A stretch of 64,000 nucleotides of DNA, from NCBI GenBank assembly GCA_035540955.1, contig DATLFP010000030.1, positions 5,709-69,708 of the forward strand, given 5' to 3'. Positions 1 through 41,663 of this stretch are shown one piece after another (the first letter of the stretch is position 1; each line of letters starts with the position of its first letter). The notes beneath the pieces were generated by a model. The model was not told the DNA's origin and made no database searches. It was given only the letters and a program-made list of their open reading frames with translations. Position numbers and translations under genes: made by a program. The stretch comes from Acidimicrobiales bacterium (GTDB taxonomy: Bacteria; Actinomycetota; Acidimicrobiia; Acidimicrobiales; CADCSY01).

Positions 1-2944
1 CGTTGCGAACGCCCGTGAGTGCCTTCATCCGGCGCCAGCGCTCGCGCGCCGTGCCGATGATCTGGTTCACACGGGCTCGTGTCACGTCGAGCTGGCCGGC
101 GACGTCGGCTTGGCTCGGCCACGAGGGGAGCGTTCCGCCATCGGTGAGGCGGGCGGCGTCGTCGAGCCCCAGGAGCAGGCGGATGGCCGCGACCTCGGTC
201 GTGTTGGCGCTGGTCGCCTTGGGCACGAGCAGCGCCGCGATCCGGTCGACGCTGAACGCGGTGGCGTCCGCTTCGTCACCGGTCACGCTCTCGCTCGACT
301 CCACATCGAACCGGGCCCGCAAGGCGCGGGCTGCCGCCGCCACCTCGCGTCTCGTCCGGTCGCCCACGGCGCGAAGGCGCATGACGTCGCGGTACGGGGT
401 CCGCAACAGGTCGTCGACGGTGTGGACGTTGCTGCGGCTCAATGCGTCGAGGGCGCGCGGGGTGAGGCCGAGCTCGACGAGCGGCGTCGCCAGGGTCGCG
501 GTGCTGACGGCCGCGGCCAGGACGCCTGACGACTCGGTGTCCTGTCCGTTCTCGGTGAGGGTGAGCACTGGCTGGTCGGCGCCGAGGAAGGACTCCTGCC
601 ACGCCCGGCGCATCTCGTCGACCGTGCCGAAGCGGTCGGAGGGGTCGCGAGACAGCGCGACCCGGAAGAACGAACCGAGCGCGTCAGCGACGGCCGGGTC
701 GAGCAGGTCCTGGTCGACGGTGACCTCGAGGCCGGGGATGCTCGCGGGATCGACGCCTTCGCCCCATCGGGGGCGGGTACCGGTCGCCATCTCGTACAGG
801 GTGACGGCCGCCGCCCAACGCTCGGCGTGGATGTCCCACCGACGCGCCGGCCGCTCGTCGAGGAACGGGTCGAGGTAGCCGGGCGTGCCGGCGCGGATCT
901 GCTCGGGCGGCGTGCGGGCGAGGGAGAAGTCGAACAGGACGAGGTGCAGCTCGTCGCGCGGCTTGCGGGCCTTGATGCCGAGGTTGTCGGGCTTGATGTC
1001 TCGGTGAGCGATGCCGTCCTGCTCGAGGAAGGTGACGACCTCGAGTAGGTCGTCACCCCATCGTTGGAGGAGGTCGAGACCGAGGCGGCCGTCCTGGCGC
1101 AGCACCTGTGCCAGCGTCCGCTCACCGGCCAGCTCCAGGTGAAGGACGAGCCGGCCGGCGATCTGGTCGAGGTCGTAGGCAGCGGCGATGCCCTTGTGCC
1201 GTGCGATCTGCAGCACCTCGTACTCGCCGCGGAGCCGTTCGTGGTGCTCGGGATCGAGCGCCACCTTGAGCACCTCGGAGCGGCCGGCCCGCTCCGCCAG
1301 CAGTGCTACCGCGCTCGATCCCTTGCCGAGCCGGCGCCGCACGATCCATCCGCCTTCGAGGACGTCGCCCTGGTTGGCGCGCAGCGGGTCGACTGGCTCG
1401 TCGACGGTGTCGGGCGCGCCGGTCAGCTCGTCGAGGGCGAGGTCGAGACCGGCGAGGAAGTCCTCGATCGTTCCCATCCGTTCCGCCACGTCGGCGGCCG
1501 TCGCTTCGCGGATCAGCAGCCGCAGCGCCTCGGCGGGCGCGTCCTGCGCCGCGCTCAGCTCCAGGCCGCCGTGGTCGCGCAGCACGCCCCGCAGCTCGGC
1601 CGCATCGGACGCCGGCGGCCGGCCGGTGAGCACGTGGAAGGCGACCGCGCCGAGCGCGAACACGTCGAGCTGGCGGCCGGGAGCGTCGGGCACCACGAAC
1701 GTCTCCGGCGCCAGATACGCGGTGGCGGTCGCCGTCACCAGATCGACGACGTGAGAGGTGCCGGCGAGCCCGGTCGAGTCACCACCGCCGGGCTGCTCGC
1801 GGGCGCCGGTCTGCCAGTCACCGACGCGGACGGTCGGCTCGGCTCTCTCGGGATTCGACACGAAGATGCTGCGCGGGCTCAGCGCCCGGTGGAACAGCCC
1901 GCGCCCGTGGGCGTGCGCCAGGGCCTCCGCGATCTCGCGGACCACGTGGAGCCGGGTGTCGAGGCTGAGACGGTCGCCCCGGTCTTCCAGCCACCGGTCG
2001 AGGCGCACCGCCGACGGATCGTGATCGAACACGAGCGCCGGCCCGTAGTCGTGCTCGCGGACGTCGAGCGGCCGGATGATCGACGGGTGCTGCACGCCTT
2101 CGAGCAGGCGGTACTCGCGATGGGCGGCGCGCACCAGACGGTCGCGCTCCTCGGCGGTGTGGGTGCTCTCCGCCAGCCACACCCGGATGCGCTTGTGCAC
2201 CTGCGGCATGGCGCGATGCGTCGCCTCCCAGTCCTGCCAGCCGCGGTCTTCGTCGAGCAGGTCGCCGAGGTCGTAGTCGCCGACTCGGCGGTGGCGCTGG
2301 GAGGGGCGGATGCCGGACTGAGCCACCGCCTCGGCGATGGCGGCCGACAGCGGTCGGTCGACAGCGCGTTGCGCACGCGCCGGGCGGTCGCCGCGCGCGG
2401 CGACGACCGGCAGGTTGCCGCGCAGCAGGTCAGCGAGGTTCGGCAGCTGCACACCGTTGGGCGACACCGGCGGGACGCCACGGCCGAACACGCGCGTGCG
2501 ACCGTCGGCGAGGAGCTGCACGTCGAGCGCTGCGTCGGTGAGGAATACGACGGGCTCGATCCAGATCTCTGGCCGTCCTCGCAGCGCCTTCTGGCGCACG
2601 AGGAGCGACTTCAGCTTCTTCGCCTTGCGGTCAGCGGCCAGGAGCGGGTTGTCGATCGTGCGAGTGGTCGACCCTGGCTCCGGTGGCGTCCACCGCCACG
2701 AGTGGGCGTTGCCGCTCATCCGCCCCGGGTGGCCCTTCAGCTCAACGAGGAAGATGCCGGTGCGGCCGACGACCAGGCAGTCGATCTCGTTGATCGAGCC
2801 GTCGTCGCCGACGAACTCGACGTTCGCCCACCCTCGGTACGGTGCGCTCGGCGGCAGAGCGTCGCGGATGAACGCCAAGCCCTCCCGCTCCCACGGGAAG
2901 CGAGACGGGTTGACCTCCGACCACAGCTCCGAGTCGCGCTCCAT
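1..2944 (-). CDS. pglW: NERD-domain + tandem (pseudokinase + kinase) Ser/Thr protein kinase, PglW-like; C-terminal end lies beyond the left window edge
   Basis: Missing from the ORF track because it has no stop inside the window. Manual minus-strand translation from ATG at 2944 gives >980 uninterrupted codons with G/C-rich third positions (MERDSELWSEVNPSRFPWEREGLAFIRDAL...). It shows a NERD-like block EIDCLVVGRTGIFLVELKGHPG. The first kinase-like domain has a degenerate catalytic loop HRALSPRS. The second domain has GKGSSAVALL..VLKV, HRDIKPDN (antisense of 983-1006), FDFSLA and GTPGYLDPF. HhH/HTH-like segments follow (LTPRALDALSRSNVHTVDDLL; LDVTRARVNQIIGTARERW). The CDS itself is about 0.9; the PglW assignment is about 0.5. 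Confidence 0.75.
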   Translation of the reverse strand, partial: MERDSELWSEVNPSRFPWEREGLAFIRDALPPSAPYRGWANVEFVGDDGSINEIDCLVVGRTGIFLVELKGHPGRMSGNAHSWRWTPPEPGSTTRTIDNPLLAADRKAKKLKSLLVRQKALRGRPEIWIEPVVFLTDAALDVQLLADGRTRVFGRGVPPVSPNGVQLPNLADLLRGNLPVVAARGDRPARAQRAVDRPLSAAIAEAVAQSGIRPSQRHRRVGDYDLGDLLDEDRGWQDWEATHRAMPQVHKRIRVWLAESTHTAEERDRLVRAAHREYRLLEGVQHPSIIRPLDVREHDYGPALVFDHDPSAVRLDRWLEDRGDRLSLDTRLHVVREIAEALAHAHGRGLFHRALSPRSIFVSNPERAEPTVRVGDWQTGAREQPGGGDSTGLAGTSHVVDLVTATATAYLAPETFVVPDAPGRQLDVFALGAVAFHVLTGRPPASDAAELRGVLRDHGGLELSAAQDAPAEALRLLIREATAADVAERMGTIEDFLAGLDLALDELTGAPDTVDEPVDPLRANQGDVLEGGWIVRRRLGKGSSAVALLAERAGRSEVLKVALDPEHHERLRGEYEVLQIARHKGIAAAYDLDQIAGRLVLHLELAGERTLAQVLRQDGRLGLDLLQRWGDDLLEVVTFLEQDGIAHRDIKPDNLGIKARKPRDELHLVLFDFSLARTPPEQIRAGTPGYLDPFLDERPARRWDIHAERWAAAVTLYEMATGTRPRWGEGVDPASIPGLEVTVDQDLLDPAVADALGSFFRVALSRDPSDRFGTVDEMRRAWQESFLGADQPVLTLTENGQDTESSGVLAAAVSTATLATPLVELGLTPRALDALSRSNVHTVDDLLRTPYRDVMRLRAVGDRTRREVAAAARALRARFDVESSESVTGDEADATAFSVDRIAALLVPKATSANTTEVAAIRLLLGLDDAARLTDGGTLPSWPSQADVAGQLDVTRARVNQIIGTARERWRRMKALTGVRN

Positions 2945-3084: not shown

Positions 3085-3507
3085 GTGAGCGAGGGTGATG
3101 AAGGCCGGAACATGGGAACCCCCGAGGAGGTCGGGGCCGCGTACGAGCAGTTCCGCGCCGCCTTCCGCCCGCGTGCGATGACTCCGGAGGAAGAAGCTGC
3201 CATGGGGCTCGCCATCGAGCTCTCCGACGCGGAGCTCCGCGCGTTCGTCGAGATGAACCGGGCGAGCGCCATGGCTGCCGAGTTTCCGGAGGAGCTGCGC
3301 GAGACGGTGCTCAGCGATCTCGCACAGGCGATGTCGCTGGCCGAAGCACTGCATAGGTCGTGGAGCGCCGACACCGAACCGGCGGACTTGCTCGCCAGTG
3401 CTCGCGCGTTGCGTGACGCGGCTGCCGCACTCGCGACGACGATCGAAGCGCTCTGGCCGGGGAGTCCGCCCCCGGATTACAGCCGCGACTTCCTCGCCGA
3501 CGGCTGA
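3085..3507 (+). CDS. hypothetical protein (140 aa, acidic/helical)
   Basis: ORF 3085..3507 has G/C-rich third positions. SD-like GGGAGG lies about 6-8 nt upstream of the GTG start. It is divergent from the kinase gene. No family recognised. Confidence 0.6.
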   Translation: MSEGDEGRNMGTPEEVGAAYEQFRAAFRPRAMTPEEEAAMGLAIELSDAELRAFVEMNRASAMAAEFPEELRETVLSDLAQAMSLAEALHRSWSADTEPADLLASARALRDAAAALATTIEALWPGSPPPDYSRDFLADG

Positions 3508-3523: not shown

Positions 3524-4135
3524 GTGCCTTCGACCGTGGCGAGTCTGTTCGCGGCCGCTGGACTGACCCACGCTGGCGTCATGCGGTGGGGCACGCCACC
3601 GAAACTGGACCAGCCGGGTGCCTACGTCGTCGCCCGTACTGAGTCGCTCGACGACCTCGTGTCCGAGTGGCACGCGGAGCTTTCATCCGCGGCCCTCGCT
3701 GAACTGCTCGACACGCGGCCGGAGCTGCGGCTGGACGGTCGGCGTCCTTCGACCGCCGACCTGGGGGACCGGCTGCAGCACTTCTGGCTTCCCGACGAGC
3801 CCGTGCTGTACATCGGGCTCGCCTCGACATCCGTCCGTACCCGCGTCACCGCGTACTACCGCACCCGGCTCGGAGCGAGGAAGCCCCACGCCGGCGGCTG
3901 GTTCCTGAAGACGCTCAGCGACCTCGATGACCTCTGGGTGCACGTAGCCCCCGCAGCCGATCCCGCAGGTGCCGAGGACGCGATGCTGCGCTCGTTCTGC
4001 TCTGGGGTCTCGGACGCGTCCGGTGCTCGACTCCGGGACCCTGATCGGCCGTTCCCGTTCGCCAACCTCGAGTGGCCGCCCGGCGTGCGGAAGCGGCACG
4101 GGATCACCGGAGCCAAGGAACCTCAGCCTCTATGA
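3524..4135 (+). CDS. hypothetical protein with GIY-YIG-like motifs (tentative nuclease fold)
   Basis: This is the in-frame GTG at 3524 inside ORF 3398..4135; the upstream part of that ORF overlaps the previous gene and is Arg/Ser-rich junk. Motifs are QPGAYVVART ... EPVLYIGLASTSVRTRVTAYY ... AEDAMLRSF ... PFANLEWP. The GxY and YIG elements are much further apart than in canonical GIY-YIG, so the fold call is weak. Confidence 0.55.
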   Translation: MPSTVASLFAAAGLTHAGVMRWGTPPKLDQPGAYVVARTESLDDLVSEWHAELSSAALAELLDTRPELRLDGRRPSTADLGDRLQHFWLPDEPVLYIGLASTSVRTRVTAYYRTRLGARKPHAGGWFLKTLSDLDDLWVHVAPAADPAGAEDAMLRSFCSGVSDASGARLRDPDRPFPFANLEWPPGVRKRHGITGAKEPQPL

Positions 4136-4163
4136 GCGATGCGGGGGTGGACGACCTCGCGAC

Positions 4164-4194
4164 GAGCCGCGCGACACGAGCGGGGTCGCGGCTC
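4164..4194. terminator. possible bidirectional stem-loop between convergent genes
   Basis: Imperfect inverted repeat GAGCCGCGCGAC ... GTCGCGGCTC overlaps the pAgo stop codon. There is no T-tract. Confidence 0.2.
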
Positions 4195-5650
4195 AGATGT
4201 AGTAGCTGAACCTCGTCTGCGGCTCCTCGTCCTCGTCGACCTCAGCCATGATGGTTCCGACCTTCTGTGCGAACGCCAAGGTCACCGGGAACTGCATGTG
4301 ATCGGCGGCCGAGTTCCAGTTCAGCTTGGTGAGCGCCATGACGTCCTGTGCTGCTCGTTCGATGTCGACGTCGTCGTCCGCGACCAGATCGAGCGGAACT
4401 GGGATGTGCGAACCCTTGTAGGTGCGACGGTTGGCTTGGTAGCCGGTGGTGAGGAGAAAGGCGCGATCGCCGATCGTCGTGAGCGAGCCTCGCGGAGGCG
4501 GGTAGTCGCCTTGACGGAGCAACCGGAAGTCGCTTGTACGTAGCGCCACGAACTCGACCTCGGGAACGTTGTCCAGGGCACGAAGTGCGCCTCGACGTTC
4601 GCCGTCGGTGAACGCAGTCGTCTTGTGCACCACCACGCGCCGAGGGTCGCGCGCCGTGCGGAGGCGGTAGTGCTCCAGCACATTGAGGACGAGCCGAGCG
4701 GTCTCGTCCTCGGAGAGCCGCAAGCGCAAGTCGTCAGGTGTCTTCTCGGCCTCGCCGCCGCGAAGGGCGAATCCCTCCGATCCCGGATAGAAGGCTTGAG
4801 CGAGTCCGGCGTTGACGGAGTGGCCGCCGCGATGCCACCGGTGGTGGAACGAGATGCCGATGTAGAGCGTGTCGAGCGCGGGCGTCGCCACTCGCCACGG
4901 GGCTCCACCTGCCTTGTAGAAGAGCGCGACACCGAGGTTCCACGCACGACTCGCGGGGTCGTCGTGGCGTCCGGGGATTGGTCCAAAGAGGTTTGGTGTG
5001 ACGATCTGGATCGGCGCCGCAATCCGCATTGCCGACGCCTTCAGCGCGCGACGGAAGTCTCGTTCGAGCAGCGCCTCTGGTCCGGTCAGCGCTTCGATCG
5101 TCGCCGGCTGCTCGTCGAAGAGGCTCAGCTGCGCGGTGGGCTTCACGGGTGCGTCCGCGAAGCGAACGCGACGGCAGTGCTTCAGGACTTCGCCTGGGAT
5201 TGCGCACAAGATGAGGTCCGGAGGAGGATCGCTGTGAACGCGCAGCTGTTCGAGCCCCGCCGTCCAGATTGCGAGCAGCTCGCGGAACGCCTTCGGCGGA
5301 TCAAGGTCCAGAGCTTCGGCGAGCTGATGGTCGGGGATGATGTACGTCCAGCTGTCATCGACGAGCAGCTGGCTATGGAAGGTCGACGCGAAGCCGGGGA
5401 ACGGCGGTCGCTGCAGCTGCATGTCCCCAAGCGTGGGGATGCTGTCTTGCATCATGGCCAGGAAGCCGCGGGCCTTCGATACGGGGCTCGCCGGTCCCAC
5501 GAGGCCCACGCGCACCTGCTGCGGGTGTCTGGCGCCGAGGCTGAGGCTGTACGGCCCGAAGGCCGTGAGCCCCTCCTTGACGCGGCTGTCAGTTCCGGTG
5601 CCGAACTCCAGCGTCGGCTCTTCGAGCTGCCGTACCACGACGCGGGTCAC
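4193..5650 (-). CDS. short prokaryotic Argonaute (MID-PIWI only, catalytically inactive)
   Basis: 485-aa ORF. It has the PIWI-entry motif ALFYKAGGAPWRV. Catalytic DEDX positions are substituted (LYIGISFH instead of GxDV; VVVHKTTAF instead of HRDG). The C-terminus ...QTRFSYYI is pAgo-like. The GTG start overlaps the upstream stop (GTGA at 5647-5650). Confidence 0.85.
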   Translation of the reverse strand: MTRVVVRQLEEPTLEFGTGTDSRVKEGLTAFGPYSLSLGARHPQQVRVGLVGPASPVSKARGFLAMMQDSIPTLGDMQLQRPPFPGFASTFHSQLLVDDSWTYIIPDHQLAEALDLDPPKAFRELLAIWTAGLEQLRVHSDPPPDLILCAIPGEVLKHCRRVRFADAPVKPTAQLSLFDEQPATIEALTGPEALLERDFRRALKASAMRIAAPIQIVTPNLFGPIPGRHDDPASRAWNLGVALFYKAGGAPWRVATPALDTLYIGISFHHRWHRGGHSVNAGLAQAFYPGSEGFALRGGEAEKTPDDLRLRLSEDETARLVLNVLEHYRLRTARDPRRVVVHKTTAFTDGERRGALRALDNVPEVEFVALRTSDFRLLRQGDYPPPRGSLTTIGDRAFLLTTGYQANRRTYKGSHIPVPLDLVADDDVDIERAAQDVMALTKLNWNSAADHMQFPVTLAFAQKVGTIMAEVDEDEEPQTRFSYYI

Positions 5651-8241
5651 GGTTCCTCCACGTCATCGAAGTCGTCGAACTCATCGTCATCGAGGTCGTC
5701 AACTTCGTCGTCGATGTGCTCCAGATCCTCCGGGTCGGGCTCGTCATTTGCACCAGATCCTTGGGTTGGCAGCATCCCTGCTTCGTCGCGGCGGAGCGGG
5801 GTTCGTTCGAGGTAGACGGCATCGGAGCCGTCATCGAGGACCGCCGAGTCCGCATCGCCGCAGATCGCCCATGCCCAGAAGAACACGTGGTTGAGAACGG
5901 ACTGGTTGCGCTCGTTGCCCATCTTTCGTGTCGAAAGCTGCGTTGTGCGTCGGCGCGTCTCGAGCTTCCCGCGCCCGTCGGTCGTGAAGACCCATGTCGG
6001 GTCGACGGTTAGGAGCCACTCGTCCTCGACATGGATGAACGACCACGCCATCGCCTGGTGCTCGTAGTAGGGGCGTCGGCTCTCCGCGGCCTTCATTCGT
6101 GAGACCGTGCGCGTCGCGACGCGCATCCGTGCCTGGTACTCGACTTCGCGGTCACTGCCGTCGTCGTTGATGTGGAACCAGATCCGACCCTTCCTGTGGT
6201 GGACCTCCGTGCCGTCGGCCTGCATGTGCCGCTCGAACATCCGGTTCAGCAGCTCGATGACGTGAGCCTCGCCATCAGGCGACGAGCAGACCTCCTCGAC
6301 GGCGTGAAGCTCGGGAGCCTCGACGTGGGATCGAAGCGGATTAGTCGCCTGCGAGAGGTCCGAGAACGTGTAGAGGTTGCGGCCGTCCAGCACGAAGCGG
6401 GGCACAGCCTCACCTGGATGGGAGTCGAAGACATCTCGAGGCTTGCGCGCCCTCGTCGGGCCTACCCAGATCTCCTCGGGCACCTTGACCCGGAGAGCGT
6501 TCACGTAGAAGACCTCGTACGAGCCCTCGGGGACGACGATTGATGCTCCCGGACGGCTGTCGGCTCGGCTCGTGACTACTGCTTCGAACTGGCGGTTCGC
6601 TGTGCCGACGTCGAAGGTCGCGACGCCTCCTCCGTCGCGTGCCCAGCGACGGACGTCGACCAAGCCGCTCCCGTACTTGTCCATCAAGCCGGTGGCGTAG
6701 AACACCTCTGCGAGGCTCGGATTGCGGTAGTGACGCACGGCTCGCTCACCGAGGTCGTCGATGTCTTCCGGATCGACGAGGCCACCTGGGTTGATGATGC
6801 GGAGACGCTGTTCGTCGATCGAGACGTCGATCGGCTCATCGGCCTCGTGGTCGCGATGCACCAGGGCGTTGACCAGTAGCTCCTTCACCGCCAGTGGCGG
6901 ATACGGGCGCACCTCGAACGACTGGGGGCCCTTGACCCGGTACGGCTCGTTCGCCGCCGCGATCAGCTCGGTCAGCTCGTCATAGAGCTCGAACAGGTTG
7001 CCGGTTACCGAACGGACGCGGCCGCCGCTCTCGATCGTCGCGGCGACTGGCCTGTCGTTCCCGAACAACAGGCGACCGGCGTTCGTCAACGTTTCGCCCA
7101 GGCTTGTTGGCGTCAGCAGGTTCATGAGCCGCAACCGGTCGCGGGCTGCGTCGGCGTCTCGGGAAGGGTTTGAAAGAGCGAGTCGTTCGAGGGCAGCATC
7201 ACCGAGCACTCGAGTCACGAGCTCGCTGTCGAACCCGTCGGCGTCTGCGGACCTTGCATCGAACGGCAACCAGTCGGCTGGCCGGGTCGATGGGTCGCGC
7301 ATCACGCCCTCGTCGAGCTCAGCCATGATCTCGTCGAACCCCTCGATCTCGACGAGCGCGAAGTTCCCGCCGCACCTCTCCGCGAGCTGAAGGACATGCG
7401 GGTGGAGATCGCCGTCGCGCGGTCTCGTGCACCAGTAGACGCCGTGTGGCAGAGCGACGGCTCCCGTCGAAGCGGCGGCGAGCAGGAGGTCGCGGTACAC
7501 CGACGGCTCGGCCCCTCTGTAGCCGATCACGATCAATGGATGATCCGCGATCAGCGGGATGATCCGGCTCGCATACGTGGGGTCGAGCTGTGCGACCTCC
7601 TCCGTGAGGTTGAGGTCCGCGTAGTGCTCGATGACTCCGTGCACGTGGATCACCTGGCTGACCGCCGGATCGGTCGAGATGAGGTCGACTTGCGCGGGTG
7701 ACTGGATCTGGATGATCGATGAGGCCGATGGGTCGCGCCGGCAACTGTCGTAGATGAGCGTCTCGAAGTTCGGCGTAAGGATCGTATGGATGCGCCGCTT
7801 GCCGACCAGCGACGCGAGCGCTCGGTAGCCGCTGCTAGCCAGATCAGGGCTGACGATCACCTGCTCCTGCAGGAACTGTCGACGTCGTTCGCGCGGCTCG
7901 AGGAGTTCCTTGATGTGCCGTGCGTAGAGCTCCTGCAGCTCGAGGGTCGGATCGAACCACTCGTGCGCGCTGACCCACGGGTACCAGTCGCTGCGCATCA
8001 ACGCGGGGTCGTCCAGATCGCGCCCGTGCTTCCGGCAGTACGCGTAACGACCGATCAGCTCGATGAGCTGCCATACGAGGGGCACGCCCGACGTGGCGGA
8101 TGCGCCCGCACCCAGAAGCAGCACGGGACGCGGTCGGCCATCGCGGACCACAGACCGGAGATCGGCGATGTCGGTCTTCCTCATCGGTACCGCCTCGTAC
8201 GTGTGTTCGAACAGTAGTCCTTCGTCGGCATCGCGAACCAC
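5647..8241 (-). CDS. SIR2 - (HATPase_c_4/RecG-C-like module) - APAZ effector partner of short pAgo, with poly-acidic C-terminal tail
   Basis: 864-aa ORF. The N-terminal SIR2-type motifs are VLLLGAGASATSGVP, HTILTPNFETL (Asn) and VIHVHG (His). The central block is LTNAGRLLFG...PLAVKELLVNALVHRDHEADEPIDVSIDEQRLRIINPGGL...YRNPSLAEVFYATGLMDKYGSGL. The C-terminal third follows the APAZ pattern I recall from TIR-APAZ/SIR2-APAZ proteins (PRFVLDGRNLYTFSDL; HVIELLNRMFERHM; YYEHQAMAWSFIHVEDEWLLTVDPTWVFTTDG; ERNQSVLNHVFFW). It ends in DEPDPEDLEHIDDEVDDLDDDEFDDFDDVEEP. Confidence 0.85.
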   Translation of the reverse strand: MVRDADEGLLFEHTYEAVPMRKTDIADLRSVVRDGRPRPVLLLGAGASATSGVPLVWQLIELIGRYAYCRKHGRDLDDPALMRSDWYPWVSAHEWFDPTLELQELYARHIKELLEPRERRRQFLQEQVIVSPDLASSGYRALASLVGKRRIHTILTPNFETLIYDSCRRDPSASSIIQIQSPAQVDLISTDPAVSQVIHVHGVIEHYADLNLTEEVAQLDPTYASRIIPLIADHPLIVIGYRGAEPSVYRDLLLAAASTGAVALPHGVYWCTRPRDGDLHPHVLQLAERCGGNFALVEIEGFDEIMAELDEGVMRDPSTRPADWLPFDARSADADGFDSELVTRVLGDAALERLALSNPSRDADAARDRLRLMNLLTPTSLGETLTNAGRLLFGNDRPVAATIESGGRVRSVTGNLFELYDELTELIAAANEPYRVKGPQSFEVRPYPPLAVKELLVNALVHRDHEADEPIDVSIDEQRLRIINPGGLVDPEDIDDLGERAVRHYRNPSLAEVFYATGLMDKYGSGLVDVRRWARDGGGVATFDVGTANRQFEAVVTSRADSRPGASIVVPEGSYEVFYVNALRVKVPEEIWVGPTRARKPRDVFDSHPGEAVPRFVLDGRNLYTFSDLSQATNPLRSHVEAPELHAVEEVCSSPDGEAHVIELLNRMFERHMQADGTEVHHRKGRIWFHINDDGSDREVEYQARMRVATRTVSRMKAAESRRPYYEHQAMAWSFIHVEDEWLLTVDPTWVFTTDGRGKLETRRRTTQLSTRKMGNERNQSVLNHVFFWAWAICGDADSAVLDDGSDAVYLERTPLRRDEAGMLPTQGSGANDEPDPEDLEHIDDEVDDLDDDEFDDFDDVEEP

Positions 8242-8258
8242 GGCGCTGTAGTTACACG

Positions 8259-8419: not shown

Positions 8420-10246
8420 GTGCGAGACCATGACGACCCGATCGCCGTCCTGCTGTTCGGCGTCCTGTGCTTCGTCGCCGCCGTGGCCGGCGTCGTCTGG
8501 GCCGGGGCGGCGTTGGCGACGGTTGTCTCGGGTGGTGGGGGACTCGACGCCGGGGTCGCTGACGCCGCACTAGCGGGGGTCTCGCTTCCAGGCCACCTGA
8601 GCGACCCGGCCGAGGCGTGGCCAGTCCCGGCGTCGGCCCGGATCCCGGGACCGTGGCTCTACTGGCCGTCGACGGCGGTCGCGTTCGTTGCCGCTGGAGG
8701 CGCGACAGCGGCGGTACTGCGGTGGCGGGCAGGTGCGAAGGGCATCGGGCCGATCCGTCTGCAGCGCTTGGGCGTCAAGGGCGCCGCTCGGTTCGCGACG
8801 GCTCGCGACCTGGCGCCGCTGGTCGTCAACGGCCCACAGCCCGGCCGGTTCATCCTCGGCCGCGTCAACGGCAAGCTCGTCGCCACCGAGGACCGTCGCG
8901 CCTCGCCCGCCACCGGCAGGCGGGCACGCCAGCGTCAGGGTGATCGCGGCGCGGTTGCGCTGATCGGGCCGTCTCGGTCGGGCAAGACGACGGCGGCGAT
9001 CGCGGGGATCCTGGAGTGGGACGGCCCCGCAGTCCTCGCATCGGTGAAGACCGACCTGCTCGCGGCGACGGTCAACTGGCGCACGAAGCAGGGCGAGGTG
9101 CGGGTGTTCGACCCGACCGGCTGTACCGGACAGCAGCCGGCGTCGTGGTCGCCGTTGCGCGACGCAACGACGGTGCAGGGCGCACAGCGAGCCGCGCGCA
9201 TCCTCGCGGACACCGCGCCAGGCGACCTCGAGGACGACGCGTTCTGGACGTCGCAGTGCGAGATCCTGCTCTTCGCGCTGCTGTTCACCGCGGCGAACAC
9301 GCCCGGTAGGTCGATGCGCCACGTCGTCGACTGGGTGCTGACCCAGGACAAGCCCGGCGAGCTCGGCCGCGGCGACCTGGAGCCACTGCTCCAGGCGCTC
9401 ATTGCATCGGACGAGCCCGAACTGGTCGCGGGCGCCGAGGAGGCGGGGAAGGCGCTGCTCGCCATCTGGCAGATGGACGAGCGCACGCGCTCCTCCGTGT
9501 ACGCGACGGCGCAGAGCGTCGTGTGGCCGTGGGCCGATCCCGGTGTCGCCGCGTCGGCCGACGACAGCGACGTCGATCTCGATTGGCTGTGCTCGGGCCC
9601 CAACACGCTCTACATCTGCGCGCCGATCGACGACCAGAAGCGGCTGCAGCCGGTGTTTGGCGGCCTCCTCGGTGACCTGATCCGGCAGGCGTTCGCCCAC
9701 GCCAACGGCACCGGCAAGCCGCTCGATCCTCCGTTGCTGGTCGTGATCGACGAGGCGGGAAACACGCCGTTGCGGTCGCTGCCCGAGTACGCGTCCACCG
9801 TCGCCGGCATCGGGATCCTGCTGGTCACCATCTGGCAGTCGAAGGCCCAGCTCGATGTCGCCTACCAGCGGGCCGCAGACACCATCCTCACCAACCACCT
9901 GACGAAGGTCTTCTACACCTCGGCATCGGACCTGTCCGGCCTCGAGCTCGCCGCTCGGCTCGTCGGCGATGCCTACCTGCCGATGCGCGCCACGAACAAC
10001 GACCTGCGCGGACCGGGCGGCTCGCTGTCGGAGTCGTCGCAGGCCATCCCGCTGGCGCCGGCGGAGGTGATGCGGCAGATGGTGCCGGGCGACGCGCTCC
10101 TCATACACGGCACGCTGCCCCCGGCGCAGCTCCGCACCCGGCCGTATCACCGCGAGCGTGACTTGGCTCGACGCGTCGGCGACGTCGACCTCGCCGCTCC
10201 TCCGTCGTCGCAGCAGAAGCAGAGCCCTGTGGGCGCGGAGGCATGA
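8420..10246 (+). CDS. type IV secretion coupling protein (VirD4/TraD/TraG family ATPase)
   Basis: 608 aa. It has N-terminal TM segments, Walker A IGPSRSGKTT, Walker B LLVVIDEAGN and the family pattern ...WTSQCEILLFALLF.... Confidence 0.9.
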   Translation: MRDHDDPIAVLLFGVLCFVAAVAGVVWAGAALATVVSGGGGLDAGVADAALAGVSLPGHLSDPAEAWPVPASARIPGPWLYWPSTAVAFVAAGGATAAVLRWRAGAKGIGPIRLQRLGVKGAARFATARDLAPLVVNGPQPGRFILGRVNGKLVATEDRRASPATGRRARQRQGDRGAVALIGPSRSGKTTAAIAGILEWDGPAVLASVKTDLLAATVNWRTKQGEVRVFDPTGCTGQQPASWSPLRDATTVQGAQRAARILADTAPGDLEDDAFWTSQCEILLFALLFTAANTPGRSMRHVVDWVLTQDKPGELGRGDLEPLLQALIASDEPELVAGAEEAGKALLAIWQMDERTRSSVYATAQSVVWPWADPGVAASADDSDVDLDWLCSGPNTLYICAPIDDQKRLQPVFGGLLGDLIRQAFAHANGTGKPLDPPLLVVIDEAGNTPLRSLPEYASTVAGIGILLVTIWQSKAQLDVAYQRAADTILTNHLTKVFYTSASDLSGLELAARLVGDAYLPMRATNNDLRGPGGSLSESSQAIPLAPAEVMRQMVPGDALLIHGTLPPAQLRTRPYHRERDLARRVGDVDLAAPPSSQQKQSPVGAEA

Positions 10247-10247
10247 C

Positions 10248-10577
10248 GTGCTCGCGGCGCGCACGACGCAAGACGGCGTGCACCTGCGGCGCGCCGACTC
10301 CGCCGAGCCCGTCCCTGCCGGCTGGCGGACACACCCGGCCGGGACGCTCGACGGCGTCCGACTCGACTTCCTCTACCGGCCCGACCGTCACGACATCTGC
10401 CGTGCCATCGGCGCACCGAGCCTCCATCTCGCGGCCGGCCTGCGGCAGGCCGGCTACCAGCGGTCGGCGTGCCTCGACGGCGGGATCGAGCTGTGGGTGC
10501 GGGACCGCCCGGCGTCGGTCCGAGCGCGGCTCGCAGGGTTCACCGTGCTCGACGGCGGGCGGGTGAGGCAGCGGTGA
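10248..10577 (+). CDS. hypothetical protein (conjugative-element core region)
   Basis: In-frame GTG at 10248, directly after the T4CP stop. Third positions are G/C-rich. The stop overlaps the next start (GGTGA). Confidence 0.55.
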   Translation: MLAARTTQDGVHLRRADSAEPVPAGWRTHPAGTLDGVRLDFLYRPDRHDICRAIGAPSLHLAAGLRQAGYQRSACLDGGIELWVRDRPASVRARLAGFTVLDGGRVRQR

Positions 10578-11050
10578 CACCCGAGGAAGCCGTGGTCGTC
10601 GCTTGCGAACGATGCGTCACCGCCGCATCGCTGCTCGCCGCCACGCAGCTCCCGGTCGATGCCGACGACCGCGCCGTCGGTCGCACGCTGGCAGCGGGGG
10701 TGGTGTGCGGTTGGGCAGACGAGACATCGGTGGGCTCGGCCGACGCCACAGGGATCAACGTGCGCGAGCGCGGCGAGACGGCGGCCGTTCGCGTGCGCTG
10801 GACCGAGGTCGCGGCCTCGATCCGCCCCGGGCTGCGCGAGCCCGGCGTCGCCGAACGGCTGGCCGAGGCGTACGGGCGGTACGCGGCCGCGGCAACGGCG
10901 ACCTCGGTCGCGGCGCGCCTCGAGGCGAAGGCGGCGTCGGCGGAGCTGGCCCAGCTCCGGCGTCACGTGCTCGCTCGCGGCCGCGAAGGCGTGCCGTTCC
11001 AGCAGTCGCTGTTCCCGCCAACACCGACACGCGGAAGGAGCCTCGCGTGA
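10574..11050 (+). CDS. hypothetical protein
   Basis: GTG at 10574 within ORF 10469..11050. It is translationally coupled on both sides, and the coding-like composition starts at VTPEEAVVVACERC. Confidence 0.55.
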   Translation: MTPEEAVVVACERCVTAASLLAATQLPVDADDRAVGRTLAAGVVCGWADETSVGSADATGINVRERGETAAVRVRWTEVAASIRPGLREPGVAERLAEAYGRYAAAATATSVAARLEAKAASAELAQLRRHVLARGREGVPFQQSLFPPTPTRGRSLA

Positions 11051-11889
11051 CGCAGGACGACGCAGCGCCGGTCGGTCGCTACGTCGGCCGCGGGGACGCC
11101 GGGGACCGCAACGTGCTCTGGTGGGTGCCACCCGGCGGTGCGCCCCGGGAGCAGCTGCCGAGCGTGCGTCGACGCAGCATCGACGGTCCCAACTGGGGCT
11201 ACGAGGGCAACGGCCCGACCGATGCTGCCGAGGCGATCCTCCTGCACGCGACCGGCGACCCGGTAGCCGCCGAGCGTCACGCCCGGACGTTCGCCGCCGA
11301 CGTGCTCGCCCACCAGGCGATCGACCGCTATCTCGATCTCTCGGCAACGACGGTCGAGGGGTGGGTTCTCGAGCGGGGCATCACGCTCGCGCCGGGGTGG
11401 AGCGCGCACGGGCCGCAACCCGTCGTCCGGCACTGGCGAGAGGTCGACGGGACCGAGCGGTATGCCGTCGCCCTCGACGGCTGGGATCTGCTGCGCATCG
11501 ACCTCCCCGACGAGTCACCGGCGGCGGTCGTCGGGGTCGCCGACCTGAAGTCGCGCCGCGAGTTGCGCTGGTCGAAGTCCATCGTCGTGGCGGAGCCCGG
11601 TGACGGACACGAGCCCGGTGCCGTCGGTGCACGGGTCACTTCCGAGCGGCTGCCGTTCGGCGGCTGGGCGATCCAGGTCGACGGCTTCGACGCCGCCATC
11701 GTCGAGCGCGACAGCGCGGCGGGGACCGACGCACGCGTCGCGATCTACGACCGCACCCCGGACTCGGGCTTCCTCGTGTTCGACGACGTGGTCCGCTACC
11801 GCCAGCTCGCCACCGAGCCGGTCGCCATCGGCGAGCTGCTCCGCCGGTTCAGCGGCACCGCCGGCCGGGATCGAGTCCTCGGCCGGTGA
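11047..11889 (+). CDS. hypothetical protein with WGYxGxGP-type motif (mobile-element associated family)
   Basis: GTG at 11047 within ORF 10603..11889 (GTGA overlap). The motif GPNWGYEGNGPTDAAEAILLHATGD resembles a domain of unknown function seen in actinobacterial mobile elements (from memory, unverified). Confidence 0.6.
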   Translation: MTQDDAAPVGRYVGRGDAGDRNVLWWVPPGGAPREQLPSVRRRSIDGPNWGYEGNGPTDAAEAILLHATGDPVAAERHARTFAADVLAHQAIDRYLDLSATTVEGWVLERGITLAPGWSAHGPQPVVRHWREVDGTERYAVALDGWDLLRIDLPDESPAAVVGVADLKSRRELRWSKSIVVAEPGDGHEPGAVGARVTSERLPFGGWAIQVDGFDAAIVERDSAAGTDARVAIYDRTPDSGFLVFDDVVRYRQLATEPVAIGELLRRFSGTAGRDRVLGR

Positions 11890-11953
11890 CGGCAGGCGAG
11901 GTAGCGTGTGTCTCGGGATCGGAGCGCGCCCCGACAGCAGCAGCTGTCCTTCG

Positions 11954-12307
11954 ATGCGCTCCTCGCCGAGGACCAACTCGCCGAGGAGGCACCCCGTGAA
12001 CGACTTCACGACGCTCGCTCACCACTGGCTGGAGAGCCACCCGAACCCGTCGGCGGTCACGGACGATCCGGACCGCTGGGCCGAACAGACGGGGCTCAGG
12101 ATCCGGCACCGGATCCGGGAGCTGGCCGACCAGCTCGCGCCACGGATGCCGGGGGAGGAGTACCTGGACCGGCTGCGCCGGCTCAACTCGGCCTGGCAGA
12201 CGGCGACGGAAGTGGCGATCGACGAGCACCTGCCGATCTACGACCCGACGCCGGACGAGGACGAGGACTGGGTGCCGCTGATCCCGGACATCTCCGACCT
12301 CCTGTAG
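11954..12307 (+). CDS. hypothetical protein (start ambiguous: 11906, 11954 or 11996)
   Basis: This frame is strongly coding by third-position G/C (..VNDFTTLAHHWLESHPNPSAVTDDPDRWAEQTGLRIRHRIRELADQL..IPDISDLL*). It may be the detached N-terminus of the next gene (see findings). Confidence 0.5.
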   Translation: MRSSPRTNSPRRHPVNDFTTLAHHWLESHPNPSAVTDDPDRWAEQTGLRIRHRIRELADQLAPRMPGEEYLDRLRRLNSAWQTATEVAIDEHLPIYDPTPDEDEDWVPLIPDISDLL

Positions 12308-17160: not shown

Positions 17161-17235
17161 CGGCGGTCTGGCGCCGCCACCTCCGTCGACCCACCGGTGA
17201 CTTCTGGGACGCGGCCAACGGCACGTGAGGACTCC

Positions 17236-21195: not shown

Positions 21196-21205
21196 CGACC
21201 GGCCC

Positions 21206-21230
21206 GCAGGTTTCCCGAAGGGAAACCTGC
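21206..21230. promoter_or_regulatory. perfect 11-bp hairpin (GCAGGTTTCCC-GAA-GGGAAACCTGC), candidate oriT element or 5'-UTR structure
   Basis: Read directly. It sits 11 nt upstream of the relaxase start candidate 21195, and no U-tract follows on the transcribed strand. Confidence 0.4.
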
Positions 21231-21280
21231 AAGCGTGTATCTGCGGGTAGGGCGGTCCGCGAGGACGCGGGTGGCGCCGC

Positions 21281-21324
21281 AAACGTGAGTGGCTCGCGAG
21301 GCGTTGGGGTCGAAAACGTGAGCG
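21281..21324 (+). repeat. two AAACGTGAG(T/C)G iterons upstream of the relaxase
   Basis: aaacgtgagtgg at 21281-21292 and aaacgtgagcg at 21314-21324. Confidence 0.6.
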
Positions 21325-21367
21325 CGGAGCGAGTTCGCGAGTAGGCCTGGAGAGCGGTGGTTCGCGG

Positions 21368-24062
<2,695 letters not shown>

Positions 24063-39505: not shown

Positions 39506-39527
39506 CAGTGCCAGCGTATGTCCGCGG

Positions 39528-39555
39528 ATGAGACAGACAGCCAGGAGCGTCGCGT
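39528..39555. promoter_or_regulatory. operator-like site ATGAGACA-N12-CGTCGCGT
   Basis: It lies 23 bp upstream of the ABC1 kinase start and is a degenerate member of the ATGCGACA-N12-TGTCGCAT family. Confidence 0.3.
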
Positions 39556-39715
39556 GTCCTCCTCCGACCGTCATTGTCTCAGGCGCCGGCCAACGGGAAA
39601 ACGGCTGGCGCGCCGCTCGCCGCGGCCCGGAAGCGGAACGGGCCGAGAGCCAGTCCGCTTCGCGGCAAGGGGGGGTGCTTGTTGACCTATGTGATGGTTT
39701 ACGATAGTTGTGTCC

Positions 39716-39739
39716 GTGAGTTAGTGGGCACTCACTCAC
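39716..39739. promoter_or_regulatory. palindrome GTGAGTTAGTG-GG-CACTCACTCAC (10/11 arms) in an AT-rich promoter region upstream of the BVMO
   Basis: It lies in the least GC-rich stretch of the window (about 39676-39755). It is preceded by a -35-like TTGACC (39682-39687) and a TACGAT hexamer (39700-39705). Confidence 0.4.
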
Positions 39740-39793
39740 CTCTCGATGTTTGAGGCGAGCGCGCCCGTCAGCCGCTGACCGAGGAGGCCAACC

Positions 39794-41605: not shown

Positions 41606-41663
41606 CGCCATGGCCTCGATGCGAGCTGGGCGCCTGCGACGCGGGCGGGAACGGAGGGGGAAC

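What the first reader, a model, noticed from the sequence alone, without database searches (positions are those of the whole stretch)
6530..7290. Inserted HATPase_c_4 / RecG-C-like (Schlafen-associated) nucleic-acid-binding module inside the pAgo effector
Residues about 320-570 of the 864-aa protein read ...LTNAGRLLFGNDRP...PYPPLAVKELLVNALVHRDHEADEPIDVSIDEQRLRIINPGGLVDPEDI...VRHYRNPSLAEVFYATGLMDKYGSGLVDVRRWA.... This is the signature I associate with the C-terminal 'ATP-dependent DNA helicase RecG-like / putative transcriptional regulator' module (REALxNAxxHRDY ... EIxNPG ... RNPxLA ... GxGI) that normally follows AlbA_2/Schlafen domains. Schlafen-type modules have been noted near pAgo genes. 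Here the module is fused in-line between the NADase and APAZ, with the usual Tyr of HRDY replaced by His (HRDH). It could be a second nucleic-acid sensor, an oligomerisation switch or a regulator of the NADase.
Basis: partly seen in the sequence, partly recalled or inferred. Interest (0 to 1): 0.7.

Follow-up and report, generated by a model that had tools for sequence, protein, structure and literature searches.

The report
ATPase domain inside an Argonaute-linked NADase
The flagged stretch is a real, well-folded ATP-binding (GHKL-type) domain sitting between the NAD-destroying SIR2 domain and the Argonaute-docking domain of a two-gene bacterial defence system; the architecture is already catalogued and widespread, but what the ATPase does there has not been tested, and it most likely acts as an ATP-driven assembly switch, not a nucleic-acid binder.

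Summary
Observation confirmed. Window 5647..8184(-) encodes SIR2–GHKL–APAZ. Its stop overlaps the start of a short pAgo gene (4193..5650) in the sequence GTGA.

Residues 319-560 hit Pfam HATPase_c_4 (E 1e-11, above the curated cut-off). They match PDB 3lmm by sequence (E 6e-13) and by fold (Foldseek E 6e-13, TM 0.69), followed by histidine kinases and PDK2. Folded alone, the segment gives pLDDT 91.5.

The module is the complete GHKL ATPase half of AlbA_2-HATPase_c_4 ('Schlatpase') proteins. No AlbA_2/Schlafen or HTH part is present; SIR2 sits where AlbA_2 normally does. The ATP motifs are invariant in 60 homologs: E454xxxN458, PGG, Y505-R-N, G524-S-G-L. The domain is as conserved as SIR2. HRDH is an ordinary variant, and a 97%-identical homolog has HRDY.

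The architecture is not new. A PADLOC model matches full length (E 5e-212). Ryazansky 2018 lists 'SIR2_1 fused with Schlafen' plus APAZ. 79 of 80 genomic relatives from seven phyla carry it, and 78 have a pAgo downstream. The pAgo and APAZ resemble clade S2B (SPARHA/SPARDA), not SPARSA.

Best mechanism, by analogy with RzAgo: ATP-dependent GHKL dimerisation gates SIR2 NADase assembly. Moderate interest.

The parts
5647..8184 (-). Gene for the SIR2–GHKL–APAZ partner protein. It is 845 aa from ATG 8184; the mechanical ORF extends to GTG 8241, giving 864 aa.
   Evidence: ORF and translation. Full-length match to PADLOC PDLC02402, E 5.3e-212. Homologs begin MRKTDIADLR. GAGG lies 8 nt upstream of ATG 8184. 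AF2 full-length model has pLDDT 85.9.
7288..8184 (-). SIR2 NADase domain (ORF residues 20-318). Catalytic N158 and H201 and the GAGxS NAD loop (G44-S48) are invariant.
   Evidence: Pfam SIR2_2 scores 24.4 bits, just under the 24.5 cut-off. PDB SPARSA Sir2 8jkz matches at E 1.5e-10, with N158 and H201 aligned to GsSir2 N142 and H186. Those are the catalytic residues according to PMC11452484. Invariance in 60 sequences.
7126..7287 (-). Helical linker at the start of the module (residues 319-372). It is poorly conserved (26% pairwise identity).
   Evidence: DSSP helices 339-345, 348-353 and 365-372. Per-domain identity. It aligns to the stretch immediately after AlbA_2 in 3lmm and in AlbA_2-HATPase_c_4 proteins.
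6562..7125 (-). GHKL (Bergerat-fold) ATP-binding core of the module (residues 373-560); this is the finding itself.
   Evidence: Pfam HATPase_c_4 E 1.3e-11. Foldseek: 3lmm at E 5.9e-13, then histidine kinases and PDK2. pLDDT 91.5. Pairwise identity 46%, equal to SIR2.
6868..6882 (-). GHKL motif I (N-box), E454-L-L-V-N458. In other GHKL ATPases these are the general-base Glu and the Mg-binding Asn.
   Evidence: E454 and N458 are invariant in 60 of 60. RzAgo E314 and N318 have the same ExxxN spacing and coordinate the gamma-phosphate and Mg.
6781..6792 (-). GHKL motif II (G1 box) variant, N484-P-G-G487.
   Evidence: P485 in 59 of 60, G486 in 60 of 60, G487 in 58 of 60. Position 484 is N in 31 and S in 29, where classic GHKL proteins have Asp.
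6721..6729 (-). Invariant Y505-R506-N507 at the end of the ATP lid. The lid is 17 aa here and 26-27 aa in other subclades.
6661..6672 (-). GHKL motif III (G2 box), G524-S-G-L527.
   Evidence: All four residues are invariant in 60 of 60.
5812..6561 (-). APAZ domain (residues 561-810), the N-L1-L2-like part that docks on the short pAgo.
   Evidence: phmmer to SPARDA DUF4365-APAZ 9qbp (E 3.4e-16) and SPARHA HNH-APAZ 9om4 (E 2e-13). Foldseek TMt 0.7-0.8 to those APAZ chains. PADLOC REase-APAZ models align from residues 554-563 onward.
5650..5769 (-). Acidic C-terminal tail (residues 825-864; 23 D/E in the last 50 residues).
   Evidence: Translation. Acidic composition is kept across the family. 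In apo SPARDA the acidic C-tail fills the guide/target groove (bioRxiv 10.1101/2025.04.08.647717). The same role here is inferred.
4193..5650 (-). Short pAgo gene (MID-PIWI, 485 aa). Its GTG start overlaps the partner gene's stop (GTGA), with GGAGGA upstream.
   Evidence: PADLOC pAgo_I E 1.5e-124. Nearest solved relatives: SPARHA pAgo 9om4_B E 1.8e-70, then SPARDA E 1e-40, SPARTA E 1e-33 and SPARSA E 7e-22. Junction sequence.

Best explanation
The segment is a complete GHKL-type (Bergerat-fold) ATP-binding domain. It corresponds to the ATPase half of the AlbA_2+HATPase_c_4 'Schlatpase' unit. It is built into the partner protein of a clade-S2B-like short-Argonaute defence system with the layout SIR2 NADase – GHKL – APAZ, and the short pAgo gene is translationally coupled downstream.

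Shown:
- The fold and its boundaries.
- Invariant ATP/Mg motifs.
- Intact SIR2 catalytic Asn and His.
- A conserved two-gene operon across seven phyla.

Inferred mechanism:
1. The pAgo/APAZ heterodimer, loaded with a small guide, recognises invader DNA.
2. ATP binding to the GHKL domain closes its lid and dimerises GHKL domains of neighbouring complexes.
3. Together with target-induced pAgo–pAgo contacts, this brings SIR2 domains into the oligomer they need for NAD+ hydrolysis. The result is NAD+ depletion and abortive infection.
4. ATP hydrolysis, through the invariant Glu, would reset the assembly.

The layout (effector–GHKL–N/L1/L2-like–MID–PIWI) is the split, SIR2-bearing counterpart of the single-chain SLFN–GHKL–pAgo protein RzAgo.
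For: Identity of the module:
- Pfam HATPase_c_4 above the curated cut-off.
- 3lmm matches by sequence and by fold, followed by histidine kinases and PDK2.
- Confident stand-alone model.
- The module profile finds 102 representatives at E<=1e-30, mostly 830-960 aa with the module at about residues 300-600. After these come ordinary AlbA_2+HATPase_c_4 proteins, whose residues about 140-390 align to the whole module.

Functional constraint:
- E454, N458, G486, Y505, R506, N507 and G524-S-G-L527 are invariant in 60 homologs of 31-80% identity.
- The GHKL core has 46% pairwise identity, against 47% for SIR2 and 38% for APAZ.

System context:
- Full-length PADLOC match for the partner and a pAgo_I match for the pAgo.
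- 79 of 80 genomic relatives carry SIR2+GHKL+APAZ, and 78 of 80 have a pAgo directly downstream.
- SIR2 N158 and H201 align with GsSir2 N142 and H186.

Mechanistic precedent:
- In RzAgo the same Pfam domain binds and hydrolyses ATP. E314 and N318 coordinate Mg and the gamma-phosphate. ATP binding drives tetramerisation through the lid, and this activates the N-terminal effector.
- SPARSA Sir2 needs tetramerisation to align H186.
- SPARDA and SPARHA, the nearest solved relatives of this pAgo, are activated by oligomer or filament assembly.
Against: - No biochemical data exist for this family, so ATP binding, dimerisation and NADase gating are all inferred.
- The G1-box Asp that contacts adenine in classic GHKL proteins is Asn or Ser here.
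- This subclade has a lid about 10 residues shorter than other subclades. That could alter or abolish lid-mediated dimerisation.
- No RzAgo sequence or structure was at hand. The equivalence of E454/N458 with RzAgo E314/N318 rests on the shared ExxxN motif and on a weak PADLOC cross-hit (PDLC02394, E 3e-5).
- pTM 0.59 for the full-length model gives no information on how the domains pack.
- S2B placement rests on best-hit ranking, not on a tree.
Confidence: 0.55

Rival explanations
1. Second nucleic-acid sensor. The module binds DNA or RNA directly and adds a second recognition input to the pAgo.
For: - The Pfam family name refers to RecG.
- Many proteins with this domain are annotated as HTH transcriptional regulators. 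JGI names show this, and several relatives carry HTH domains.
Against: - The fold is a Bergerat ATP-binding domain, and its structural neighbours are kinases.
- Conservation is concentrated in the ATP/Mg motifs.
- The AlbA_2 and HTH domains that accompany this module in regulators were not detected here at E<=1.
- In RzAgo the domain binds ATP specifically and mediates protein–protein contacts.
Confidence: 0.07
2. Enzymatic or metabolic role rather than an assembly switch. In this reading the GHKL domain is a second output or a sensor of the cell's ATP level. It might act as a kinase (PADLOC calls a sister family 'SIR2-Kinase'), as an ATP-consuming effector working alongside NAD+ depletion, or as a gauge that licenses the NADase only at certain ATP levels.
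For: - The nearest folds after 3lmm are protein kinases of the GHKL class, namely histidine kinases and PDK2.
- PADLOC model PDLC02418 is named Aga_SIR2-Kinase-PNTD1-PNTD2.
- The invariant general-base Glu implies that hydrolysis or phosphotransfer matters.
- Some family members add a PNP_UDP_1 nucleosidase-like domain, pointing to nucleotide-directed chemistry.
Against: - There is no DHp/His-phosphotransfer helix and no substrate-binding domain next to the GHKL core.
- GHKL ATPases turn over slowly, so bulk ATP depletion is unlikely (general knowledge of the superfamily).
- The one studied homologous case uses ATP binding for oligomerisation.
Confidence: 0.15
3. Passive scaffold. The domain is a relic of a Schlatpase ancestor that now serves only as a rigid spacer or docking surface between SIR2 and APAZ and no longer binds nucleotide.
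For: - The G1 Asp is replaced by N or S.
- The lid is shortened in this subclade.
- Lid and hairpin lengths vary between subclades.
Against: - Sixteen invariant residues cluster in the ATP motifs across 31-80% identity.
- The core is as conserved as the catalytic SIR2 domain and more conserved than APAZ.
- A mere spacer would not keep ExxxN, PGG and GSGL intact in seven phyla.
Confidence: 0.1

Closest known systems
PADLOC-DB PDLC02402 'Aga_SIR2-PNTD1-PNTD2' (876 positions) and PDLC02418 'Aga_SIR2-Kinase-PNTD1-PNTD2'. These probably correspond to Ryazansky et al. [quoted passage not shown]
   Same: Full-length match at E 5.3e-212 covering residues 28-855 against model positions 5-864. The three-part architecture is the same, and the pairing with a short pAgo is the same.
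   Different: Nothing structural; this gene is a member of that family. The PDLC02402 label does not mention the ATPase domain. The 2018 paper calls it 'Schlafen', although no AlbA_2/Schlafen nuclease domain was detected. No functional study of this family turned up in the library searched.
SLFN-pAgo RzAgo from Runella zeae (Kuzmenko et al., bioRxiv 10.64898/2026.05.29.728809)
   Same: The same Pfam GHKL domain (PF13749) sits between an N-terminal toxic effector and the Argonaute N/L1/L2-like part. The ExxxN motif is shared. In RzAgo, ATP binding by this domain drives the oligomerisation that activates the effector.
   Different: - RzAgo is a single-chain long-B pAgo with a PAZ domain; here the system is split into an APAZ protein plus a short pAgo.
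- The effector is SIR2 (NADase), not the SLFN tRNase.
- The pAgo here is closest to the S2B short pAgos.
SPARSA (clades S1A/S1B, e.g. Geobacter sulfurreducens Sir2-APAZ/Ago; PDB 8jkz, 8in8, 8y80)
   Same: SIR2 NADase with the same catalytic Asn and His. An APAZ partner of a catalytically inactive short pAgo. The expected output is NAD+ depletion.
   Different: - SPARSA Sir2-APAZ is about 585 aa with no domain between SIR2 and APAZ.
- Its APAZ shows no detectable sequence similarity to this one.
- Its pAgo is the most distant of the solved short pAgos (E 7e-22 against 1.8e-70 for SPARHA).
SPARHA and SPARDA (clade S2B; PDB 9om4, 9qbp, 9qbq, 9jsb)
   Same: They hold the closest solved pAgo and APAZ. 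They have an acidic C-terminal tail. They are activated by target-induced higher-order assembly.
   Different: Their effectors are HNH or DREN nucleases joined directly to APAZ. They have no GHKL domain and no NADase.
AlbA_2–HATPase_c_4(–HTH) proteins, e.g. DIP2311 of Corynebacterium diphtheriae (PDB 3lmm)
   Same: The whole module, including the helical linker, is homologous to the region that follows AlbA_2.
   Different: AlbA_2 and the C-terminal HTH were not detected. SIR2 sits on the N-terminal side and APAZ on the C-terminal side.

Membership tests
GHKL ATPase superfamily / Pfam HATPase_c_4 (PF13749) | Profile match above the curated gathering score | tested here: met
   44.8 bits against a cut-off of 26, E 1.3e-11.
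GHKL ATPase superfamily / Pfam HATPase_c_4 (PF13749) | Bergerat alpha/beta-sandwich fold | tested here: met
   AF2 model with pLDDT 91.5. Foldseek hits to 3lmm, CpxA, CusS, HK853 and PDK2.
GHKL ATPase superfamily / Pfam HATPase_c_4 (PF13749) | Motif I (N-box ExxxN: general-base Glu and Mg-binding Asn) | tested here: met
   E454 and N458 are invariant in 60 of 60.
GHKL ATPase superfamily / Pfam HATPase_c_4 (PF13749) | Motif II (G1 box DxGxG, with the adenine-contacting Asp) | tested here: inconclusive
   The sequence is N/S-P-G-G. The glycines are conserved, but Asp is replaced by Asn (31 of 60) or Ser (29 of 60).
GHKL ATPase superfamily / Pfam HATPase_c_4 (PF13749) | Motif III (G2 box, glycine-rich lid hinge) | tested here: met
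   G524-S-G-L527 is invariant.
GHKL ATPase superfamily / Pfam HATPase_c_4 (PF13749) | ATP binding and hydrolysis | not testable with these tools
   Needs biochemistry. The only precedent is RzAgo.
'Schlatpase' supradomain (AlbA_2/SLFN + GHKL; Kuzmenko 2026) | AlbA_2/Schlafen nuclease domain directly N-terminal of the GHKL domain | tested here: not met
   No PF04326 hit at E<=1. The alignment to 3lmm and to AlbA_2-HATPase_c_4 proteins starts only after their AlbA_2 domain. SIR2 occupies that position.
'Schlatpase' supradomain (AlbA_2/SLFN + GHKL; Kuzmenko 2026) | PF13749 GHKL domain | tested here: met
Short pAgo system, clade S2B | Short (MID-PIWI) pAgo gene in an operon with an APAZ-containing protein | tested here: met
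   PADLOC pAgo_I E 1.5e-124. GTGA overlap between the two genes. APAZ hits. The operon is conserved in 78 of 80 loci.
Short pAgo system, clade S2B | pAgo and APAZ group with S2B members rather than S1 or S2A | tested here: met
   Judged by similarity ranking only. pAgo: SPARHA 1.8e-70, SPARDA 1e-40, SPARTA 1e-33, SPARSA 7e-22. APAZ matches only SPARDA, SPARHA and REase-APAZ. No phylogenetic tree was built.
Short pAgo system, clade S2B | PIWI lacks the DEDX catalytic tetrad | not tested
   Expected for a short pAgo, but the tetrad positions were not mapped here.
SPARSA (S1A/S1B SIR2-APAZ + short pAgo) | SIR2 NADase with catalytic Asn and His | tested here: met
   N158 and H201 align with GsSir2 N142 and H186 and are invariant.
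SPARSA (S1A/S1B SIR2-APAZ + short pAgo) | SIR2 joined directly to an S1-type APAZ (about 580 aa protein), with the pAgo in clade S1 | tested here: not met
   A 240-aa GHKL domain intervenes. The SPARSA chains match only residues 41-318. The SPARSA pAgo is the weakest of the solved short-pAgo hits.
PADLOC PDLC02402 (Aga_SIR2-PNTD1-PNTD2, Class I) | Full-length HMM match | tested here: met
   E 5.3e-212; residues 28-855 against model positions 5-864 of 876.
Ryazansky 2018 orthogroup og_40 (SIR2_1 + 'Schlafen' + APAZ) | Membership in the orthogroup | not testable with these tools
   Only the verbal description is available. JGI labels several homologs 'predicted HTH transcriptional regulator / SIR2'. 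That fits a COG2865-type 'Schlafen' annotation of this module.

The most novel reading that the evidence does not exclude
The GHKL domain makes this short-pAgo NADase a two-input switch that needs both target DNA and ATP. ATP-driven GHKL dimerisation would supply the effector-side interface that SIR2 or TIR domains provide by themselves in SPARSA and SPARTA. 'Toxic effector + GHKL' would then be a portable, oligomerisation-gated cassette, carrying either SLFN or SIR2, that has been plugged into both long-B and short S2B Argonautes.
Probability: 0.4. Interest if true: 0.6.

Novelty: new member of a known kind. Interest (0 to 1): 0.4.

Why it matters
If the ATPase gates the NADase, a large and untested branch of short-Argonaute immunity would be ATP-dependent. 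The family has about 100 clusters at 50% identity and occurs in Actinomycetota, Acidobacteriota, Alphaproteobacteria, Bacteroidota, Poribacteria, Chloroflexota and Planctomycetota.

That would extend the GHKL-driven assembly logic just described for SLFN-pAgo (RzAgo) to short pAgos. It would also give a natural AND-gate that could be used in SPARTA-style nucleic-acid detection tools.

For genome annotation, the practical point is that the 'Schlafen' and 'RecG C-terminal' labels on these proteins are misleading. The domain is a GHKL ATPase without the Schlafen nuclease.

Tried and rejected
- AlbA_2/Schlafen or HTH remnants in residues 319-445 or elsewhere: no Pfam hit at E<=1.
- NCBIfam: no model matches the partner protein.
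- Literature search for PADLOC's 'PNTD' nomenclature returned only unrelated papers. The Koopal 2023 review is not held.
- The only paper found that links GHKL or HATPase domains to Argonautes is Kuzmenko 2026. The other HATPase hit concerns an unrelated two-component system.
- RzAgo is not in the PDB copy. Neither a single-sequence nor a profile search found any GHKL chain other than 3lmm, so E454/N458 could not be aligned residue by residue to RzAgo E314/N318.
- PLSDB megablast of window 4000-12000 gave no match. The best hit among the species representative genomes is only 42% identical, so the source organism was not identified. It is probably a high-GC Actinomycetota.
- dN/dS by domain against the 95.5%-identical contig L081: there were too few substitutions (13 amino-acid changes) to be informative.
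- Promoter and terminator consensus scan of 3900-8500 found nothing. There are no tRNA genes in the window.
- 'Recent local insertion' was rejected, because the module is present in 79 of 80 relatives.
- The one exception, L031/P0101, is a different protein. It shares only the SIR2 domain (70% identity) and diverges exactly at the SIR2/module junction.
- ORF 1064-2995(+) is spurious. The real gene there lies on the minus strand.


Full report
**1. What is at the coordinates**

Window 5647..8241(-) is an 864-codon ORF. Its stop overlaps the GTG start of a 485-aa ORF at 4193..5650(-) in the sequence GTGA, with GGAGGA just upstream.

The real start of the upstream gene is almost certainly ATG 8184, which is M20 of the ORF. 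A GAGG lies 8 nt upstream. The homologs P0001 (97% identical), P0002 and P0101 all begin MRKTDIADLR. The protein is therefore 845 aa.

Residues 320-570 correspond to nt 6532-7284, matching the stated coordinates.

**2. Is the similarity real?**

Yes.
- Pfam scores HATPase_c_4 (PF13749) at 44.8 bits against a curated cut-off of 26, E 1.3e-11, on residues 469-537. There is also a weak hit to the generic HATPase_c model.
- Against PDB sequences, the segment matches only 3lmm (DIP2311 of Corynebacterium diphtheriae). E is 6e-13 over residues 323-528 against 3lmm residues 162-376. A family profile improves this to 2.5e-17.
- An AlphaFold2 model of residues 315-562, built on a 22-sequence alignment, is confident: pLDDT 91.5, pTM 0.88.
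- Foldseek of that model finds 3lmm first (E 5.9e-13, TM 0.69, 252 columns). Next come CpxA, CusS and HK853 histidine kinases and pyruvate dehydrogenase kinase 2. This is the same fold neighbourhood reported for the RzAgo GHKL domain.

The module is therefore a compact domain of about 240 residues, not a linker. It has a short helical lead-in (319-372) and a Bergerat alpha/beta sandwich (373-560).

**3. What flanks it**

- Residues about 41-318 match the Sir2 chains of solved SPARSA complexes (8jkz, 8in8). Residues about 560-810 match the APAZ parts of SPARDA (9qbp, 9qbq) and SPARHA (9om4).
- SIR2 N158 and H201 align with GsSir2 N142 and H186. These are the residues shown to be catalytic (PMC11452484). 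Both are invariant in 60 homologs.
- The downstream protein is a short pAgo: PADLOC pAgo_I, E 1.5e-124.
- Its nearest solved relatives are the SPARHA pAgo (E 1.8e-70) and SPARDA pAgos (about 1e-40). SPARTA follows at about 1e-33, and SPARSA is far behind at 7e-22.
- Taking the APAZ and pAgo results together, the system belongs with clade S2B, not with the classical SIR2 clades S1A/S1B. This rests on similarity ranking; I built no tree.

**4. What the module is and is not**

- No AlbA_2/Schlafen hit and no HTH hit appear anywhere in the protein at E<=1.
- A search of 1.84 billion representatives with the module profile gave 14,299 hits at E<=1e-3 and 102 at E<=1e-30. The top of the list is mostly proteins of 830-960 aa with the module at about residues 300-600.
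- The next tier is ordinary AlbA_2+HATPase_c_4 proteins, with or without HTH or TPR. Their residues about 140-390, directly after AlbA_2, align to the whole module.
- The module is therefore the ATPase half of what Kuzmenko et al. call the 'Schlatpase' supradomain. SIR2 stands where AlbA_2 normally stands.
- The boundaries are sharp. P0101, from an Acidimicrobiales MAG, shares the SIR2 domain at 70% identity up to residue 311 and is then unrelated. PADLOC REase-APAZ models start matching at residues 554-563.

**5. Is it functional?**

- In a 60-sequence alignment (31-80% identity to the query), the invariant residues of the module are T386, N431, K437, S441, E454, N458, A459, H462, G486, Y505, R506, N507 and G524-S-G-L527.
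- These include the GHKL motif I (ExxxN), the glycines of motif II, the end of the ATP lid, and motif III.
- Mean pairwise identity of the GHKL core is 46%. That equals SIR2 (47%) and exceeds APAZ (38%). The helical lead-in is only 26%.
- One caveat: the classical adenine-contacting Asp of motif II is Asn or Ser.
- A second caveat: this subclade has a 17-residue lid, against 26-27 residues in other subclades.
That column reads Y 49, H 7, F 3, L 1, and the 97%-identical homolog has HRDY.

**6. Distribution**

- All 120 listed homolog clusters carry PF13749 and/or SIR2_2. All but a few shorter entries (494-809 aa) are 828-1223 aa long.
- A scan of one genome per GTDB species found 208 relatives. 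Of the best 80 loci, 79 have SIR2+GHKL+APAZ and 78 have a short pAgo immediately downstream. One of the two without a pAgo is cut by a contig end.
- Hosts span Actinomycetota, Acidobacteriota, Alphaproteobacteria, Bacteroidota, Poribacteria, Chloroflexota and Planctomycetota.
- Variants add an N-terminal PNP_UDP_1 domain.
- The module is thus an old, fixed part of a family and not a local insertion.

**7. What was already known**

- PADLOC-DB (2023) holds an 876-position model, PDLC02402 'Aga_SIR2-PNTD1-PNTD2', that matches this protein end to end (E 5.3e-212). It also holds a sister model explicitly named 'Aga_SIR2-Kinase-PNTD1-PNTD2'.
- Ryazansky et al. [quoted passage not shown]
- Koopal et al. 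2022 mention 'DHS-like-APAZ' in S2B.
- Lisitskaya et al. 2023 mention 'a subgroup of SIR2 effectors' in S2B.
- Kanevskaya et al. 2025 still speak of 'additional uncharacterized effectors' in S2B.
- I found no functional study of this family in the library searched.
- The architecture is therefore catalogued, partly under a misleading label, but the role of the ATPase domain in it is untested.

**8. Most likely mechanism**

The best precedent is RzAgo (bioRxiv 10.64898/2026.05.29.728809).
- It is a long-B pAgo with an SLFN–GHKL(PF13749)–Ago layout.
- It binds ATP specifically. E314 and N318 coordinate Mg and the gamma-phosphate, and E314A abolishes hydrolysis but not binding.
- ATP binding drives tetramerisation, mainly through the GHKL domain and its lid, and this assembles the active effector.

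The protein here has the same order of parts: effector – GHKL – N/L1/L2-like APAZ, followed by MID-PIWI on a second chain. Independently, SPARSA Sir2 needs tetramerisation to align H186. SPARDA and SPARHA, the closest solved relatives, fire through target-induced filaments.

I therefore propose the following. Guide-dependent target recognition by pAgo/APAZ, together with ATP-dependent GHKL dimerisation, assembles SIR2 oligomers that hydrolyse NAD+. Hydrolysis at E454 resets the system.

- Shown: the fold, the motifs, conservation, the operon, and the SIR2 active site.
- Inferred: ATP binding, dimerisation, gating, and the type of guide.

The acidic C-tail (23 D/E in the last 50 residues, kept across the family) probably plugs the nucleic-acid groove in the apo state, as in SPARDA. 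This too is inferred.

**9. Rivals**

- A direct nucleic-acid sensor is poorly supported. It rests on the wrong fold, the DNA-binding partner domains are missing, and conservation sits in the ATP pocket.
- A kinase, ATP-consumer or ATP-gauge role remains possible but lacks a substrate-presenting element.
- A purely structural relic is hard to reconcile with the invariant ATP motifs.

**10. Context**

- The operon sits in a stretch of lower G+C: 0.65 against 0.71-0.75 around it.
- On the left is a minus-strand NERD–tandem protein kinase gene that runs off the window.
- On the right is a conjugation block: a T4SS coupling protein, DUF6166, a 1750-aa methyltransferase/SNF2-like helicase, and a TrwC relaxase.
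- A metagenomic contig, L081, is 95.5% identical over window 1-8446 and ends where the conjugation genes begin.
- The system is probably cargo at the edge of a conjugative element in a high-GC actinobacterium. The organism itself was not identified.

**11. Verdict**

The 'nucleic-acid-binding' and 'HRDH' points are not supported. The gene is a new member of an already catalogued but biochemically unstudied family. Interest is moderate (0.4). The value lies in a clear and testable hypothesis: an ATP-gated NADase in short-pAgo immunity.

Noticed in passing
window 1..2944 (-), running off the left end: Large gene encoding NERD + two protein-kinase domains + an RNA-polymerase alpha-CTD-like motif. 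It is 1432 aa in the near-identical contig L081. It lies next to the pAgo operon and may be another defence gene. The mechanical ORF 1064-2995(+) over it is spurious.
   Followed up: partly
window 3085..3507 (+) and 3524..4135 (+): Two small genes (140 and about 203 aa) convergent with the pAgo operon. They are conserved in L081 and have no convincing Pfam or PADLOC match, apart from a sub-threshold DUF6301 hit.
   Followed up: partly
window 8420..21735: Conjugation block: T4SS coupling protein (8420-10246, +), DUF6166 protein (10603-11889, +), a 1750-aa methyltransferase + SNF2/ResIII-like helicase (11908-17160, +), and a TrwC relaxase with AAA_30 helicase (17236-21735, -). The pAgo operon sits at its edge in a G+C dip (0.65 against about 0.72).
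   Followed up: partly
window 5650..5769 (-), residues 825-864: Strongly acidic C-terminal tail of the partner protein. The acidic composition is kept across the family. In SPARDA the equivalent tail occupies the guide/target groove in the apo state.
   Followed up: partly
L031 5953..7494 (P0101, Acidimicrobiales MAG OZ243946.1): A 494-aa protein whose SIR2 domain is 70% identical to this one up to residue 311, followed by an unrelated tail of about 200 aa. It sits beside a HEPN_Swt1–DUF499 gene. This looks like a recent domain swap exactly at the SIR2/GHKL junction.
   Followed up: partly
homologs P0241, P0246, P0252 (1100-1270 aa; not in the window): Family variants with an extra N-terminal PNP_UDP_1 (nucleoside phosphorylase-like) domain ahead of SIR2–GHKL–APAZ. 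Other representatives (P0243, P0245, P0255) start at the GHKL domain with no SIR2; these may be truncated gene calls.
   Followed up: partly
alignment A1, residues 394-413 and 488-504: The family splits into structural subtypes by ATP-lid length (17 against 26-27 residues) and by a beta-hairpin insert (20, 26 or about 50 residues). The window's clade has the shortest version of both.
   Followed up: no
window 38207..41812 (-), 44532..47324 (+), 52928..57525 (+): Beyond about 22 kb the window looks like ordinary chromosome: an ABC1 atypical kinase and branched-chain amino-acid ABC transporter components. This suggests an integrated element rather than a small plasmid.
   Followed up: no
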